Both the position numbers and the translations under genes were made by a program. A stretch of DNA of 23,305 nt. Source: a virus. Position 1 is the first letter of the stretch. Each line of letters starts with the position of its first letter. Location: UHGV virus genome UHGV-0337120; one strand, written 5' to 3'. Below are positions 3,105 through 13,176 of the stretch, one piece after another. The notes below the pieces were generated by a model that was not told the DNA's origin, made no database searches, and saw nothing but the letters and a program-made list of their open reading frames with translations.

Positions 3105-4250
3105 ATGAGCATCACTGAATCAGTAACACATCACATCAACAGCGCACTGGATGCAGCGGAAGATACCGTTAGGGTGCCAGACTTCACTATCACACTGGAA
3201 GGGAAAGATGCCAGCCTGAAGAACATCACGCAGCGCATCATGAGCCTGACCATGACAGACAACAGGGGTTTTGAGGCTGACAGGGTGACACTGGAAATCG
3301 ACGACGCCGACGGCGGGGTGGTACTTCCGGAACGCGGAACACGATTATCGCTGGCGATGGGGTGGAAAGGTGAAAGCCTCACTCGCAAGGGGACGTTTGT
3401 GGTGGACGAAGTGAGCCACGAAGGTCCGCCGGATAAGCTGACCATATCCGCGAACAGTGCGGATTTTCGCGAAGAGTTTAACGTGAAACGCGAAGTCTCC
3501 TGGCATGACGTGACCGTTGAGCGTGTGGTATCTGCCATCGCGCACCGTTACGGACTGAAAGCACAAATCAGCGAAATGCTGATGAATATCGAAATCGACC
3601 ATGCAGACCAGACAGAGGAAAGCGACATCTCGTTCCTCACGCGTATGGCTGACATGCTGGGTGCAATAACCACCGTAAAAAACGGGAGCCTGCTGTTCAT
3701 TCTGCCGGGTGGCGGTGTGACAGCCAGCGGGCGCGCCCTCCCCTCATTCGCCCTGACCCGCTCGGATGGCGACAGTCATCGCTTTCGCATTGCTGACAGA
3801 AAAGCCTATACCGGAGTGAAAGCTTACTGGCTGGATTTAAAGTTCGGCCAGAAGAAGGCCGTGAACGTGAAAAAGCGAAACGCGAAAACCACACAGAAGC
3901 CGGAGAAAAGCAGTTCACGGGAGGGTGGATACATGGAAGGCGCAGAAGGCAATGTATATGTGCTGAGAAAAACCTACCCGAACGAAGAAGCCGCGCGTCG
4001 CGCAGCTGCCGCACGCTGGCAGCAACTTCAGCGGGGTGCAGCAGAATTCAGCATCACGCTGGCGCGCGGACGCGCCGACCTGTATCCGGAGATGCACGGC
4101 ACGGTATCCGGGTTCAAGAGCGATATTGACAATCAGGACTGGGTTATTTCGCGCATTGAGCACGTCATCGACGACAGCGGCTTCACCACCAGACTGGAGC
4201 TGGAAGCAAAAATCGCAGACTGGATAGCAGAGCGCGCCACAACTGGCTAG
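3105..4250 (+). CDS. D: Tail protein / late control protein gpD-like
   Basis: 381 aa; blocks FTITLEGKD, LTMTDNRGFEADRV, SWHD, FLTRMA, GGYMEGAEGNV, AAEFSITLARGRADLYPE, DWVISRIEHV, GFTTRLELE align to P2 gpD from memory; GGGAGGG RBS. Confidence 0.9.
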   Translation: MSITESVTHHINSALDAAEDTVRVPDFTITLEGKDASLKNITQRIMSLTMTDNRGFEADRVTLEIDDADGGVVLPERGTRLSLAMGWKGESLTRKGTFVVDEVSHEGPPDKLTISANSADFREEFNVKREVSWHDVTVERVVSAIAHRYGLKAQISEMLMNIEIDHADQTEESDISFLTRMADMLGAITTVKNGSLLFILPGGGVTASGRALPSFALTRSDGDSHRFRIADRKAYTGVKAYWLDLKFGQKKAVNVKKRNAKTTQKPEKSSSREGGYMEGAEGNVYVLRKTYPNEEAARRAAAARWQQLQRGAAEFSITLARGRADLYPEMHGTVSGFKSDIDNQDWVISRIEHVIDDSGFTTRLELEAKIADWIAERATTG

Positions 4251-4291: not shown

Positions 4292-4594
4292 ATGCATCCT
4301 TGCCCATACTGCGGAGCAAGTACCCGCACCAGAACAAGCCGCGACGCCAACGATACAGGAACAATCAGGGAGAAATATTACCAGTGCAACAACATTGAAT
4401 GCAGCGCCACCTTTGTGACGCACGAGTTTGTCGTGAGAACCGTATGCCGTCCGCAACCCACCGAAGAACGGGGAGTCGTCCCCGCAGACGCTTTCAAATC
4501 ATGCCACCGGGGAAGGGATCAACTCAGCCTCCCCCTGGGCGATTGCGCCTCCCAGTCAAAAACTGTACATTACGCGCGGGTGCCTTTCGGCTGA
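4292..4594 (+). CDS. ogr: Ogr/Delta-family zinc-finger late transcription activator
   Basis: CPYC...QCNNIECSATF matches the Ogr C-x2-C...C-x4-C finger (P2 Ogr CPLC...QCQNVNCSATF); directly downstream of D as in P2. ORF is 100 aa, longer than P2 Ogr, so the C-terminal extent is uncertain. Confidence 0.8.
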   Translation: MHPCPYCGASTRTRTSRDANDTGTIREKYYQCNNIECSATFVTHEFVVRTVCRPQPTEERGVVPADAFKSCHRGRDQLSLPLGDCASQSKTVHYARVPFG

Positions 4595-4725
4595 CGGCTG
4601 GAAGGATTACCTGAAGGCCGGATGTGGAAAGGCCCCGAGTCAAACATATTGTTTAACCCGAGGCCCTGACCATCTAACCGTGACAAGTGGAAGGTTAGCG
4701 CCTCTTTGAAAAAGGAGCAAGCGCT

Positions 4726-4866
4726 ATGCCGCAAAAAACGATCATCGTGAGCATTTTATGCTTAACCATGTTGTTGACCGTCTGGATGATACACCGTTCA
4801 CCGTGTGAGTTCAGACTTAACATCATGTGGTCAGAATTTGCGGCGTTCTTGCAGTGTAAACAGTAA
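4726..4866 (+). CDS. hok: Hok/Gef-family type I toxin-like small membrane protein (46 aa)
   Basis: Hand translation MPQKTIIVSILCLTMLLTVWMIHRSPCEFRLNIMWSEFAAFLQCKQ. Shares the spacing CLT-x9-S-x-CE-x-R-x6-E-x-AAF with Hok (R1); GGAG RBS 8 nt upstream; structured 3' region with hairpin at 4875-4896 and terminator at 4961-4991. Too short to appear in the ORF track. Confidence 0.6.
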   Translation: MPQKTIIVSILCLTMLLTVWMIHRSPCEFRLNIMWSEFAAFLQCKQ

Positions 4867-4960
4867 GAAACCGCAGCGGGGGTGAAAGCCCCCGCTATCC
4901 GGTTGCCGAAGGTTCGGTCGAAAGTCGCACCCTCACACGCAAGTCACAAAGAAAAACAAA

Positions 4961-4991
4961 GCCCGCAGCGTAAAAACTGTGGGCTTTTTTT
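4961..4991 (+). terminator. Rho-independent terminator (8-bp stem with one G-U pair, then T7)
   Basis: gcccgcag-cgtaaaaa-ctgtgggc followed by ttttttt. Confidence 0.6.
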
Positions 4992-5061
4992 GTTTAACAA
5001 CCTGGCGGTGAAAACAACAAGCAGAGATAGTCTCACCAAAAAAATTTAGAACGCCATGGCA

Positions 5062-5251
5062 ATATGTGGACAACTCGAAAAATAATCCTTTATTTTTCAT
5101 TGCATTACATCAGTTTTCGCGCCACCCGAAGGTGGCATAAGGGGGTAGCACGTATCGCTATCCCCCTTTATATATCAAATGGTTACGAGTTCAAAGTAGT
5201 TCGGAATAGTGCCATTTAGTCCCCGTTTATGGGCAAAATCTGGACAACTCC
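5062..5251. other. Candidate attP region: two direct copies of AT-N-TGGACAACTC flanking a hairpin-rich core
   Basis: aTGTGGACAactcg at 5063-5076 and atcTGGACAactcc at 5238-5251; from memory the P2 Int arm-site consensus is TGTGGACA. Two hairpins at 5121-5166 lie between them. Position between ogr and int matches P2 attP. Confidence 0.35.
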
Positions 5252-6222
5252 GCAACCGGATTGAACCTTACCGCGTCCTGGAGATAATCAGGTGCAAAGT
5301 GCGCATAGGTCATTGTTTGCTGAATTGTGCTGTGCCCTAAAATACGCTGAAGGGTAATAATGTTCCCTCCATTTATCATGAAATGAGTTGCGAATGTGTG
5401 CCGTAAAACATGCACAGACTGACCGACTGGTAAATCAGGCCGCACAGTCCTTATTGCACTTCTGACTATCGCATAACTGGGGTTCATTAATCTTCCAGTC
5501 GCTTTGACTTTAATCAGAGATTCAAGATCTTTAGCTATAGGAATAACCCGCCGCGATCCATTCTTTGTCTCCATGAAAATAACCTTCCCACCAATTATGT
5601 GTTCACCTTTAATATTGGCAACTTCACCCCAGCGCCCGCCTGTAGCCAAGCTTAACAATACAGCCTTAAGATTATCGCCAGATAAAAGTGCGGTTAGCCT
5701 AGGAATATCATCATGTGCAAGATAAGCCATTTCCGGCTGATTAATTGTTAGCTTGCGTATCTCGTGAAACGGGTTATCACCCACAAACTCTTCAACATCA
5801 ATCAGCTTTTCAAAGAAACCGCTCATCATTGCACAATAACGATTTACCGTTGACTGCTTAATTCCGCGATTCATTAATTCAAGGCGATATCTGATAATAT
5901 TTTTTCGGGTTAAGTGGTCACTTCTGTTAATACCAAGCTCTTGCATATCACGAAGAACCGCTTCAATTCTGACCCGATTCATCGCGCCATAACGATGATT
6001 CTTACCGTGGTACACCCACCACAGTTCCAGAAGATCGCTTAACGCTTTACGTTCAATAGGTTTTTCGACCCAGTCCTTATCGTGATAATGCGTCAGAACA
6101 TGGCGTTCATACATCGCCGCTTCACCACGGGTAGGAAATCGCCGCCGAAATCTTCTTCCTTCAGATCCAGCAGGCCGCACGTCCACACAGTATTTGCCAT
6201 CAGCGAGCTTCTTAATCGACAT
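5227..6222 (-). CDS. int: Tyrosine integrase, P2 Int family
   Basis: N-terminus MSIKKLADGKYCVDVRPAG matches P2 Int MAIKKLDDGRYEVDIRP; C-terminal HVLRHTFATHFMINGGNIITLQRILGH...YAHFAPDYLQDA carries the catalytic R-H-R-Y region. Start set at the ATG giving MSIKK (6222), not the track's 6258. Confidence 0.92.
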   Translation of the reverse strand: MSIKKLADGKYCVDVRPAGSEGRRFRRRFPTRGEAAMYERHVLTHYHDKDWVEKPIERKALSDLLELWWVYHGKNHRYGAMNRVRIEAVLRDMQELGINRSDHLTRKNIIRYRLELMNRGIKQSTVNRYCAMMSGFFEKLIDVEEFVGDNPFHEIRKLTINQPEMAYLAHDDIPRLTALLSGDNLKAVLLSLATGGRWGEVANIKGEHIIGGKVIFMETKNGSRRVIPIAKDLESLIKVKATGRLMNPSYAIVRSAIRTVRPDLPVGQSVHVLRHTFATHFMINGGNIITLQRILGHSTIQQTMTYAHFAPDYLQDAVRFNPVAELSRFCP

Positions 6223-6288
6223 AAGGAAGCCCCCCAATGAAAACATCATCTTGATCACAATTTTGAGAAATAAAGGCCAGATGGACCG

Positions 6289-11655: not shown

Positions 11656-12083
11656 CGCAAATGCTCGCTGGCAGACAGACCAACAGATGCGCTCGCTTTG
11701 TTTTTTGCGGGCCTGACAAACGCCTTCATGGATGCGCTGTTCGTTTCTTCCAGATACAGAATGCGCTCAATCAGGCGTTCAGTGCTCATGAAATCCCTTT
11801 GCGTAATCAGACGAAGGTAGCTCTGTTTCTGCCAGCACGCCAGTTCGGCGACGAATTCACACTTGCTGCAAAACCAGGAAAAAACAAAAAATGCCAGTCC
11901 GCAAAGACTCATCAGGACGGGGAAACCTACGAGAAGAAAGGACAATACCGCAGCAATCAGCGCCCCGGCGCGCAACATGGCAGCGGCTTTATTGCTGAGT
12001 ATGAAAACCATCTCTTCCAGCCAATAGCTGTACCACAGATGAAAAAAAATCTTCTTGTCTGCTTGCTCCATAGTAACAGGCAT
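11616..12083 (-). CDS. Two-TM membrane protein, antisense to early operon (cargo candidate)
   Basis: ATG 12083 with GGAGG RBS 7 nt upstream; hydrophobic helices AMLRAGALIAAVLSFLLVGFPVLM and LCGLAFFVFSWFC, then a soluble C-terminal domain; 3' end overlaps the convergent upstream gene by 40 nt. Confidence 0.55.
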   Translation of the reverse strand: MPVTMEQADKKIFFHLWYSYWLEEMVFILSNKAAAMLRAGALIAAVLSFLLVGFPVLMSLCGLAFFVFSWFCSKCEFVAELACWQKQSYLRLITQRDFMSTERLIERILYLEETNSASMKAFVRPAKNKASASVGLSASEHLRYSERLICWLCGV

Positions 12084-12469
12084 AAACAACCTCCATTGTT
12101 AATAAACGCCGCTATCCCTCGGCGCATTCCATTTTTGCGCCGCGATTATACATACTTCAGCACGCAACACAAAAACCGCTTGCCAGCGCTCGTCGTGTCA
12201 GGTTACATTTCCGCTGCACCTCATAAAACGGGTGCCGGGATTTCCACCCCGCTGACAAACGAAGCGCACAGCCGCGCCAGCGGTTTTTTTGTGCGTACTG
12301 TATCGCCACGTCTTTTTCGCGTCAGAATTATGGCGGGGCGTACAGGGCCGACTTCGGTCGGGCCGGTTTCTTCGTTTGCCGGTTGTGGAAACCCTGTACG
12401 TCTCGCCACCCTGAGTTTTCCACCTCTGGTTGGTGAGTTTTCAAAATTCACAAACGAAGAGGCCACACC

Positions 12470-12691
12470 ATGGCAAACCGCAAGCAACAGCGCGCCCGCG
12501 CTGAGCGTCTTCACATCCGCAGCGAAATCAACCGCAGACTCCATCGGGCTGCATCTGTCGCCTTTATCATGCAGTCAAACGTATTACACCGACTTAACGA
12601 CGGTATCGCTGCCGGGTATTACGCGGCAGTCTTCAGCTATCTCGCCGAAGATCTGGCAGAACTACAAAGCCTCATCAACCAGCACCGATAA
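12470..12691 (+). CDS. Hypothetical protein (P2 orf82/83-region equivalent)
   Basis: 73 aa; GAAGAGG RBS; follows a 370-bp ORF-free structured region. Confidence 0.45.
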   Translation: MANRKQQRARAERLHIRSEINRRLHRAASVAFIMQSNVLHRLNDGIAAGYYAAVFSYLAEDLAELQSLINQHR

Positions 12692-12759
12692 ACCACATCC
12701 GGAAGCTATCCCACACCTGCACGCGGGAGGCTTCCGCACATCTGTTACCGGAGGTTCTC

Positions 12760-13176
12760 ATGAAGAGCGTTAAGGGGCTTTCAGATATTCAGGACTTTTT
12801 TAACTGGATGTGGGCGGTGGATCCCCTGCTGGCTTCCCGCCTGAACAACTGGCACGACTATTACCGCCGCGCCTGTAAACAGGCTGCCCGCAGCGTCACC
12901 ACATACGGGGATTTCTCCTTCACCGTGGACGGTCGTTACCGCGTGGACGTGAAAGGTGATGGTGATGGACTGGGTTTATTTCACATCAACGGCACCGACA
13001 GTACCGCCATCAGCTGGTCGTCATCAGAGATGGCGCTGGTTCTGGAAATGACAACCCACAGCGTGGCCGTGAAAGGTATATACACCGCAGAAGGTTTTAT
13101 CGGCGAATACCAGCGCCTTCTCGTGCTGTACCGCGCGGCGTTTCAGGTGGCAACTGCCGGGGAGTACGACGCATGA
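12760..13176 (+). CDS. Hypothetical protein upstream of A
   Basis: 138 aa; GGAGG RBS; stop overlaps A start (ATGA). Confidence 0.5.
   Translation: MKSVKGLSDIQDFFNWMWAVDPLLASRLNNWHDYYRRACKQAARSVTTYGDFSFTVDGRYRVDVKGDGDGLGLFHINGTDSTAISWSSSEMALVLEMTTHSVAVKGIYTAEGFIGEYQRLLVLYRAAFQVATAGEYDA

What the first reader, a model, noticed from the sequence alone, without database searches (positions are those of the whole stretch)
4600..5000. Hok/Gef-family toxin gene between ogr and int
A 46-codon ORF with the Hok spacing pattern and a structured, terminated 3' region sits next to the probable attP. A phage-borne hok-like locus could act in lysogen maintenance or abortive infection. No antisense partner was identified by eye.
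Basis: partly seen in the sequence, partly recalled or inferred. Interest (0 to 1): 0.55.

Follow-up and report, generated by a model that had tools for sequence, protein, structure and literature searches.

The report
Hok/Sok toxin–antitoxin cassette in P2-like phage

Summary
Confirmed and ordinary. ORF 4726-4866 (+, 46 aa) scores above Pfam's gathering threshold for Hok/Gef (27.8 bits against 22). It sits in a self-contained cassette, about 4543-4995, that has most of the hok/sok regulatory elements of plasmid R1:
- its own promoter, conserved in every genomic context;
- a 5' element (tac) that pairs with a 3' element (fbi) over 17 bp in the full-length mRNA;
- an alternative tac/ucb pairing once the 3' end is removed;
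- a protective 3' hairpin and a terminator.

It is a roughly 60-nt Sok-like RNA on the minus strand, about 4685 to 4624, with a conserved promoter and a hairpin.

An identical locus in an E. coli chromosome is annotated 'Hok/Gef family protein'. Phages P88 and Chuche carry the cassette in the same slot after ogr, and Stx phages and an O157 island carry it elsewhere. Peptides 50-85% identical were reported toxic on overexpression.

The one departure from R1 is that neither this locus nor any of 12 relatives has a mok leader ORF. What the cassette does for the phage (prophage addiction, abortive infection or help with lysis) was not resolved.

The parts
4543..4571 (+). hok promoter: -35 TTGCGC (4543-4548), 17-nt spacer, -10 TACATT (4566-4571). 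Transcription would start at G4578. The promoter lies inside the 3' end of the ogr ORF.
   Evidence: A TTGCnn-17-TAnATT-6-GGGTGCC arrangement is kept in nearly all the copies examined (P2-like phages, Stx phages, O157 island), and homology between contexts begins at the -35. E. albertii has TTGAAA with an 18-nt spacer, and the degraded S. diarizonae copy lacks it. It matches only 7 of 12 consensus positions and was not reported by the consensus scan.
4578..4995 (+). Predicted full-length hok mRNA (about 418 nt).
   Evidence: Rfam RF01794 matches the 5' UTR at 4578-4736, E 2.4e-9, 47.9 bits, below the gathering score of 59. The 5' end aligns with GGCGCTTGAGG of an R1-type hok.
4578..4594 (+). 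tac element, the 5' end of the mRNA.
   Evidence: In the minimum-free-energy fold of the full-length RNA it pairs with 4914-4932. In the 3'-truncated RNA it pairs with 4624-4636. It is invariant in 12 of 13 relatives.
4624..4636 (+). ucb element, the alternative partner of tac after 3' trimming.
   Evidence: The tac/ucb helix has 12 pairs, with 98.7% of cells paired across 13 sequences.
4660..4704 (+). Sok-target hairpin. GAGGC (4660-4664, the counterpart of the R1 mok Shine-Dalgarno) pairs with GCCUC (4700-4704, dcb) in the truncated form.
   Evidence: helix 6, 89% paired. Predicted accessibility of the loop rises from about 0.2 to 0.5-0.7 on truncation in most relatives.
4712..4717 (+). hok Shine-Dalgarno AAGGAG, sequestered by 4702-4707 in the full-length fold.
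   Evidence: Probability unpaired is 0.02 or less in the full-length form in 12 of 13 sequences. The pairing appears in the RNAalifold consensus.
4726..4866 (+). hok CDS, 46 aa: N-terminal transmembrane helix and a C-terminal part with C27 and C44.
   Evidence: Pfam PF01848 27.8 bits against a cut-off of 22; PHROG 251; 34% identity to R1 Hok, E 2e-8. It has 6 of the 7 residues reported as more than 80% conserved in Hok.
4874..4897 (+). GC-rich 3' hairpin, the likely stop for 3' exonucleases. It would define the truncated, active mRNA.
   Evidence: 9 pairs, 99% paired, 4 pairs with compensatory changes. Role inferred from R1 (PMC9841398).
4914..4932 (+). fbi element, which pairs with tac.
   Evidence: 17 bp in the minimum-free-energy fold. 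Recovered by RNAalifold in all 13 sequences, with a compensatory change in the Salmonella diarizonae copy. Homology with the Stx-phage copies ends right after it.
4958..4995 (+). Intrinsic terminator, hairpin plus T run. T-rich on both sides, so possibly bidirectional.
   Evidence: The weak Rfam Thr_leader matches here reflect only terminator likeness.
4692..4720 (-). Sok-like promoter: -35 TTGCTC (4720-4715), 17-nt spacer, -10 TAACCT (4697-4692).
   Evidence: Both hexamers are invariant in 13 sequences (AGGTTA and GAGCAA). In the alignment with an R1-type hok, the -10 box lines up with AGGATA, which I recall from memory as the R1 Sok -10. The sokW probe and the promoter-mutating primer in PMC8621323 carry GGCTAACC. 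The promoter is weak against consensus and was not found by the scan.
4624..4686 (-). Predicted Sok-like antisense RNA, about 60 nt. Both ends are inferred, give or take a few bases.
   Evidence: It folds as a free 5' tail of about 19 nt, an 18-bp hairpin and then UUUCC; dG -33.9 kcal/mol, z -6.0 against shuffles. It is complementary to the target hairpin and the ucb region of the hok leader.
4292..4594 (+). ogr (left neighbour). Its last 17 or so codons and its stop codon lie inside the hok cassette.
   Evidence: Pfam Ogr_Delta; cassette boundary.
5100..5136 (.). attP crossover region (right neighbour).
   Evidence: Identity with the integrated prophage in NZ_CP116067 ends at 5136; there host ytfP follows.

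Best explanation
Positions 4543-4995 are a complete, self-contained hok/sok-type type I toxin-antitoxin cassette. It is carried as accessory cargo at the attP-proximal end of a P2-like temperate phage.

Inferred mechanism, by homology with plasmid R1:
1. A weak constitutive promoter makes a stable full-length hok mRNA of about 418 nt.
2. In that mRNA the 5' end (tac) is clamped to the 3' fbi element, the Shine-Dalgarno sequence is buried, and the Sok target is masked.
3. Slow 3' trimming back to the hairpin at 4874-4897 removes fbi. Tac then switches to ucb and the target hairpin forms.
4. A short-lived antisense RNA of about 60 nt, transcribed leftward from about 4685, binds the trimmed mRNA and triggers its destruction.
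5. When Sok supply stops, the stored mRNA is translated into a 46-aa inner-membrane peptide that collapses the membrane. Supply could stop through loss of the prophage, a global block of transcription by an infecting phage, or events during induction.

Shown here: family membership of the peptide, the two alternative RNA folds and their conservation, the conserved promoter boxes, and mobility of the cassette between phage types. Inferred: transcript ends, processing, the Sok-mRNA interaction and toxicity.

Unlike R1, there is no mok leader ORF, so translation would have to start directly at the hok ribosome-binding site.
For: - Pfam HOK_GEF is above its cut-off, and PHROG 251 matches at E 5e-19.
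- Rfam 'sok' (hok leader) matches at E 2.4e-9.
- Minimum-free-energy folds give tac/fbi in the full-length RNA and tac/ucb plus the target hairpin in the truncated RNA.
- RNAalifold on 13 distinct relatives recovers tac/fbi and the Shine-Dalgarno hairpin, with 16 pairs showing compensatory change.
- The truncated structure is 84% paired, against 35-49% when the partners are slid, and no shuffle out of 500 reaches the observed covariation.
- The Sok-like RNA folds strongly (z -6.0) and its promoter boxes are invariant.
- The hok promoter is conserved in unrelated contexts.
- The cassette is annotated Hok/Gef, 'host toxic membrane protein' or 'MokW-like host killing' in many records.
- Three close relatives were cloned for toxicity assays, and none is among the 3 non-toxic constructs out of 45.
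Against: - The Rfam hit is below the gathering score (47.9 against 59), and the NCBIfam Hok models are well below their cut-offs.
- Neither promoter reaches the consensus-scan threshold.
- Predicted opening of the hok Shine-Dalgarno after truncation is variable (0.00-0.43) among relatives, so how Hok gets translated is unclear.
- The conserved Leu before the Cys-Glu motif is Pro here.
- There are no expression or toxicity data for this exact sequence.
Confidence: 0.85

Rival explanations
1. Role: prophage addiction. The cassette kills cells that lose the prophage, because the stable hok mRNA outlasts Sok. This keeps the P2-like element in the lineage.
For: This is the classical function of hok/sok on plasmids (PMC9841398 introduction; PMC10899753 abstract). 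The cassette has its own promoter and terminator and is the last element before the prophage end, so it leaves with the phage. hok loci are four-fold enriched in prophages.
Against: No data here. Deleting the different hokW-sokW cassette from Sp5 did not affect normal growth, and prophage stability was not reported.
Confidence: 0.35
2. Role: abortive infection or exclusion of other phages. An infecting lytic phage shuts off host transcription, Sok decays, Hok kills the cell early and the invader's burst is lost.
For: From my own knowledge, R1 hok/sok was reported to reduce T4 growth (Pecota and Wood 1996); I did not check this here. In P2-like prophages the slot after ogr also holds other accessory cargo: a Com/methyltransferase pair, a RES-domain protein, and zinc-ribbon/TagO genes.
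Against: [quoted passage not shown] The P2-like defence-hotspot papers do not mention hok or ogr.
Confidence: 0.25
3. Role: lysis helper during the phage's own lytic cycle, as shown for hokW-sokW of Stx phage Sp5.
For: In Sp5, sokW disappears after induction, HokW appears before the endolysin, and deletion halves phage release (PMC8621323).
Against: That cassette is a different hok (51 aa), located elsewhere in Sp5 and 933W than the homologue of this one. From general knowledge, P2-like phages are mostly not SOS-inducible.
Confidence: 0.2
4. The cassette is an inert or decaying passenger. Without mok, Hok cannot be translated from its native mRNA, so the locus has no phenotype.
For: No mok start in this copy or 12 relatives, while the control plasmid locus shows one. 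The start codon and Shine-Dalgarno stay largely paired in both predicted folds. Some copies have lost fbi (L010, L012) or their promoter and Shine-Dalgarno (L018).
Against: The ORF length, the Shine-Dalgarno, both promoters and every RNA switch element are conserved across P2-like phages, Stx phages and islands, while the coding sequence diverges to about 50% identity or lower. Neutral decay would not give that pattern.
Confidence: 0.15

Closest known systems
hok/sok (parB) of plasmid R1 and related IncF plasmids
   Same: The toxin is a Hok/Gef-family peptide (34% identity). The element order is the same: promoter, tac, ucb, GAGG box, target hairpin, dcb, Shine-Dalgarno, hok, 3' hairpin, fbi, terminator. 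The antisense promoter is in the same place, with -10 TAACCT here aligned to AGGATA in the R1-type locus (= TATCCT on the minus strand).
   Different: There is no mok ORF: the window has ATC where R1-type loci have the mok ATG, whereas the control plasmid locus has mok at -58 with 70 codons. The leader is about 20-25 nt shorter and the peptide is 46 aa, not 52. It is phage-borne.
The same 46-aa Hok cassette in P2-like phages P88, Chuche, P884B11 and 520873 and in E. coli P2-like prophages
   Same: Same slot directly after ogr, same architecture, 74-76% nucleotide identity. The peptide of this group, listed as 72_1621, was tested for toxicity.
   Different: The peptide is only about 50% identical. 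The window copy is closer to the copies in Stx phage phi296 / phage 86 and in the O157 island (85-89% nucleotide identity), so the cassette has been exchanged between phage types. Here the ogr ORF runs into the cassette.
Cassette downstream of lom in Stx phages (933W, Sp5/VT2-Sakai, phi296), annotated 'host toxic membrane protein'
   Same: Homologous from the -35 box to fbi, 77-85% nucleotide identity, 46-aa ORF.
   Different: Different phage family and neighbours. Homology stops right after fbi, so the terminator differs.
hokW-sokW of Sp5 (Takada et al. 2021, PMC8621323)
   Same: A prophage-borne hok/sok type I system with experimental proof of toxin, antitoxin RNA, and RNase III and Hfq dependence. 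The sok -10 region contains the same TAACC.
   Different: A different cassette: 51-aa HokW (MKQQKAM...), at about 57.8 kb in VT2-Sakai against 44.5 kb for the homologue of this locus. Its lysis-helper role cannot simply be transferred.

Membership tests
Hok/Gef peptide family (Pfam PF01848) | Profile match at or above the curated gathering score | tested here: met
   27.8 bits against a cut-off of 22, E 1.9e-6, residues 9-44 on profile positions 7-42 of 42.
Hok/Gef peptide family (Pfam PF01848) | Residues more than 80% conserved in 1264 Hok peptides (M1, C16, T18, L30, C31, E32, E41) | tested here: met
   M1, C12, T14, C27, E28 and E37 are present. L30 is replaced by Pro26 here and in the tested peptide 82_1289. 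A C-terminal Cys (C44) matches the Cys variant reported at logo position 48.
Hok/Gef peptide family (NCBIfam HokA equivalog / Hok subfamily) | Score at or above NCBI's curated cut-off | tested here: not met
   HokA 37.4 bits against 89; Hok family 27.3 bits against 73. It is therefore not HokA or R1-type Hok, but a separate subgroup of the Pfam family.
[quoted passage not shown] | Long-range tac/fbi pairing that closes the full-length mRNA | tested here: met
   17 bp (4578-4594 with 4914-4932) in the minimum-free-energy fold. Present in all 13 relatives in the RNAalifold consensus.
[quoted passage not shown] | Alternative tac/ucb pairing and target hairpin after 3' truncation | tested here: met
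   Minimum-free-energy fold of 4578-4900. Helices are 98.7% and 89% paired across 13 sequences, and slid controls give about 40%. These pairs are invariant, so the evidence is compatibility rather than covariation.
[quoted passage not shown] | Cis-encoded antisense RNA (Sok) with its own promoter, complementary to the hok leader | tested here: inconclusive
   Conserved -35 and -10 boxes at the homologous place and a stable hairpin RNA. There are no transcript data, the promoter is weak against consensus, and the U tract has only 3 U.
[quoted passage not shown] | Overlapping mok leader ORF to which hok translation is coupled | tested here: not met
   No start codon at the homologous position, and no ORF crossing the hok ATG in the window or in most relatives. 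The same script finds the 70-codon mok at -58 in an IncF plasmid locus.
[quoted passage not shown] | Rfam RF01794 covariance model at the gathering score | tested here: inconclusive
   47.9 bits, E 2.4e-9, full model length, but the gathering score is 59.
[quoted passage not shown] | Toxicity of the peptide and neutralisation by the antisense RNA | not testable with these tools
   Only indirect evidence: relatives 82_1289, 72_1589 and 72_1621 are listed among the tested constructs, and none is among the three non-toxic ones. Neutralisation by Sok has not been tested for this subgroup.

The most novel reading that the evidence does not exclude
This 46-aa Hok subgroup, found in P2-like phages, Stx phages and O157 islands, may be a natural mok-less version of hok/sok. 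In it the tac/fbi-to-tac/ucb RNA switch and Sok would control the hok ribosome-binding site directly, without translational coupling to a leader peptide. That would show mok is dispensable in part of the family. It would also give a simpler natural model for the switch.
Probability: 0.35. Interest if true: 0.35.

Novelty: already known. Interest (0 to 1): 0.15.

Why it matters
It matters little beyond correct annotation. The locus adds one more phage-borne hok/sok cassette to a family already found in about 9% of Escherichia phages and enriched in prophages.

Two points may interest specialists:
- The same cassette, promoter included, moves between P2-like phages, Stx phages and genomic islands.
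- This subgroup keeps every RNA switch element of R1 but has no mok, so how its toxin is translated is an open question that can be tested.

The biological role of the cassette in P2-like phages has not been studied.

Tried and rejected
- **mok ORF.** I scanned all frames of the window and 12 relatives, with a plasmid positive control. None is conserved. Long frames occur in only three prophage copies (L005, L006, L012), and the window's GTG at 4680 gives 9 codons that are not conserved.
- **Direct release of the hok Shine-Dalgarno.** I tested whether 3' truncation frees it, which would explain the absence of mok. The window fits (0.00 to 0.40 unpaired), but several relatives stay at 0.00-0.06, so I do not claim it.
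- **Equating the locus with hokW-sokW.** Rejected. The hokW start sequence is absent from all homologous loci, and hokW maps elsewhere in Sp5 and 933W.
- **Rfam Thr_leader hits at 4870-4993.** These are terminator look-alikes.
- **Word-indexed and exhaustive protein searches.** They returned only close relatives, 25 and 8 hits, because the peptide is so short.
- **Genome-collection scan.** It gave 6 loci. Three sit in Xanthomonas, Planococcaceae and Vagococcus assemblies on contigs that look enterobacterial, probably contamination.
- **Papers on P2-like defence hotspots.** They mention neither hok nor ogr.

Full report
**Observation**

The window has a 46-codon ORF at 4726-4866 on the plus strand, MPQKTIIVSILCLTMLLTVWMIHRSPCEFRLNIMWSEFAAFLQCKQ. 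An AAGGAG ribosome-binding site lies 8 nt upstream. Downstream are a GC-rich hairpin (4874-4897) and a canonical intrinsic terminator (stem 4958-4987, T run to about 4995).

The neighbours are phage genes. gpD is at 3105-4250, ogr at 4292-4594 and a tyrosine integrase at 5227-6258 on the minus strand. Further on come a C-type repressor, cox, a Dam methylase and the gpA replication gene. The window is therefore a P2-like (Peduoviridae) temperate phage, distantly related to P88.

The same phage is integrated in E. coli DETEC-S792. There the sequence is identical up to window position 5136, and the host gene ytfP follows. The attP crossover is therefore at or just left of 5136, about 140 nt beyond the hok terminator.

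**Identity of the peptide**

- Pfam HOK_GEF (PF01848) scores 27.8 bits, above its gathering score of 22.
- PHROG 251, 'MokW-like host killing', scores 69 bits, E 5e-19.
- The NCBIfam models for HokA and the R1-type Hok family match only weakly, 37 and 27 bits against cut-offs of 89 and 73.
- Identity to R1 Hok is 34%.

The peptide is thus a Hok/Gef member of a separate subgroup. It carries six of the seven positions reported as more than 80% conserved among 1264 Hok peptides: M1, Cys and Thr in the membrane helix, the Cys-Glu motif, and the later Glu. The Leu before Cys-Glu is Pro.

**The RNA around it**

Rfam's 'sok' model is written in the sense of the hok leader and ends at the hok AUG. It matches 4578-4736 over its whole length with E 2.4e-9, although below the gathering score (47.9 against 59). 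Alignment with an R1-type plasmid locus shows the same order of elements.

Folding the predicted full-length transcript (4578 to 4932 or 4995) gives a 17-bp helix between the 5' end (4578-4594, tac) and 4914-4932 (fbi). The hok Shine-Dalgarno is paired with 4702-4707.

Folding the RNA cut after the 3' hairpin (4578-4900) moves the 5' end onto 4624-4636 (ucb). GAGGC (4660-4664) then pairs with GCCUC (4700-4704) to form a long hairpin. These are the two conformations described for R1 hok mRNA (PMC9841398).

On 13 distinct relatives (alignment A2):
- RNAalifold recovers tac/fbi in all of them, and 16 predicted pairs carry compensatory changes.
- The truncated-form structure is 84% paired, against 35-49% when partners are slid.
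- No shuffle out of 500 reaches the observed covariation.
- The tac and ucb sequences are invariant, as expected for a segment that must fit two partners. For those helices the evidence is compatibility, not covariation.

**The antisense partner**

On the minus strand, TTGCTC (4720-4715), a 17-nt spacer and TAACCT (4697-4692) are both invariant in the 13 sequences. In the alignment with an R1-type locus, the -10 box lines up with AGGATA, which from memory is the R1 Sok -10. The oligonucleotides used to probe sokW and to inactivate its promoter contain the same GGCTAACC.

A transcript starting near 4685 would have a free 5' tail of about 19 nt, an 18-bp hairpin and then UUUCC. Its folding energy is 6 standard deviations better than shuffles.

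This is a credible Sok equivalent of about 60 nt, but its ends are inferred. Neither this promoter nor the hok promoter reaches the threshold of the simple consensus scan.

The hok promoter is TTGCGC, 17 nt, TACATT, 6 nt, then G4578. It is conserved as TTGCnn-17-TAnATT in nearly all the copies examined, and homology between contexts begins at the -35 box. The unit is therefore a self-contained cassette of about 450 bp.

**What is missing**

R1 needs translation of the overlapping mok frame to translate hok. There the mok ATG is 58 nt upstream of the hok ATG and mok has 70 codons (PMC9841398).

My frame scan finds exactly that in an IncF plasmid locus. It finds no start codon at the equivalent place in the window (ATC) or in any of 12 relatives. 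No ORF crossing the hok ATG is conserved.

Predicted opening of the hok Shine-Dalgarno after truncation is clear in the window (0.00 to 0.40) but weak in several relatives. I therefore cannot say how translation is activated. This is the only real departure from the paradigm.

**Distribution and prior knowledge**

- The 451-bp region matches 1750 of 5426 complete E. coli genomes and 198 phage records.
- It lies directly after ogr in P2-like phages P88, Chuche, P884B11 and 520873 and in several prophages. There it is sometimes followed by other cargo.
- It lies after lom in Stx phages such as 933W and Sp5, and next to the urease island of O157:H7.
- P2-like phages of Klebsiella, Serratia and Salmonella that have a similar gpD lack it.
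- Records call it 'Hok/Gef family protein', 'host toxic membrane protein' or 'MokW-like host killing'.
- A 2025-26 catalogue of Hok (bioRxiv 10.1101/2025.08.07.668861) reports hok enriched four-fold in prophages. Its construct table lists three peptides of this subgroup, one of them 85% identical to the window peptide. None is among the three non-toxic constructs out of 45.
- The experimentally studied hokW-sokW of Sp5 is a different cassette at another position of the same phage. Its lysis-helper role is a lead, not a result for this locus.

**Verdict**

The finding is real and its interpretation is right. It is already annotated and belongs to a well-known kind.

I give 0.85 to the statement that this is a working hok/sok-type cassette. 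The physiological role is unresolved:
- prophage addiction, about 0.35;
- abortive infection, about 0.25;
- lysis help, about 0.2;
- inert passenger, about 0.15.

The most novel reading still open is that this subgroup runs the hok RNA switch without mok.

Noticed in passing
window 12216-12290 and 12326-12413 (+): Rfam matches above gathering score to isrK (64 bits) and C4 antisense RNA (82 bits), adjacent in the early region upstream of gpA. They lie inside a 370-codon ORF (11661-12773) that has no Pfam match. This looks like a P1/P7-type c4 antisense-RNA module in a P2-like phage.
   Followed up: no
window 4542-4594: The ogr ORF is 100 codons, against 86 in the other P2-like prophages sampled. 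Its last 17 or so codons and its stop lie inside the hok cassette, across the hok promoter and tac element. The cassette therefore supplies a foreign C-terminus to Ogr.
   Followed up: partly
window 5118-5136: The hairpin GCCACCCGAAGGTGGC sits at the point where identity with the integrated prophage ends. In E. coli DETEC-S792 the adjoining host gene is ytfP, so the phage probably integrates at the ytfP terminator.
   Followed up: partly
L010 (E. coli ST866, Stx-type prophage) and L012 (E. coli F5656C1, P2-like prophage): No GCACCC fbi core was found at the expected distance in these two copies of the cassette. In L012 homology ends before fbi. Such copies might make an mRNA that is never locked shut, or they may be decaying.
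   Followed up: no
L009 (IncFII plasmid pMTY1886, R1-type hok): Its Hok is identical to R1 Hok, but the mok ATG is 57 nt rather than 58 nt upstream. It is therefore in frame with hok and would give an N-terminally extended Hok instead of Mok. Plasmid L019 has the normal 58-nt spacing.
   Followed up: partly
L003, L005, L011, L012 (P2-like phage and prophages), downstream of hok: The stretch between hok and the attachment site carries varying cargo: a Com plus DNA methyltransferase pair, a RES-domain NAD+ phosphorylase, and zinc-ribbon/TagO genes. The slot after ogr behaves as a variable accessory region not mentioned in the P2 hotspot papers I checked.
   Followed up: no
L013, L014, L016 (assemblies named Xanthomonas pisi, Planococcaceae MAG, Vagococcus sp.): These contigs carry the E. 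coli-type hok cassette at near identity to enterobacterial copies. This is most likely contamination of those assemblies.
   Followed up: no
window 4726-4735 with 4837-4846: The hok start codon and first codons pair with the codons for Phe-Ala-Ala-Phe near the C-terminus (10 pairs, 99% paired in 13 sequences). This probably explains why both ends of the ORF are nearly invariant at the nucleotide level while the middle diverges.
   Followed up: partly
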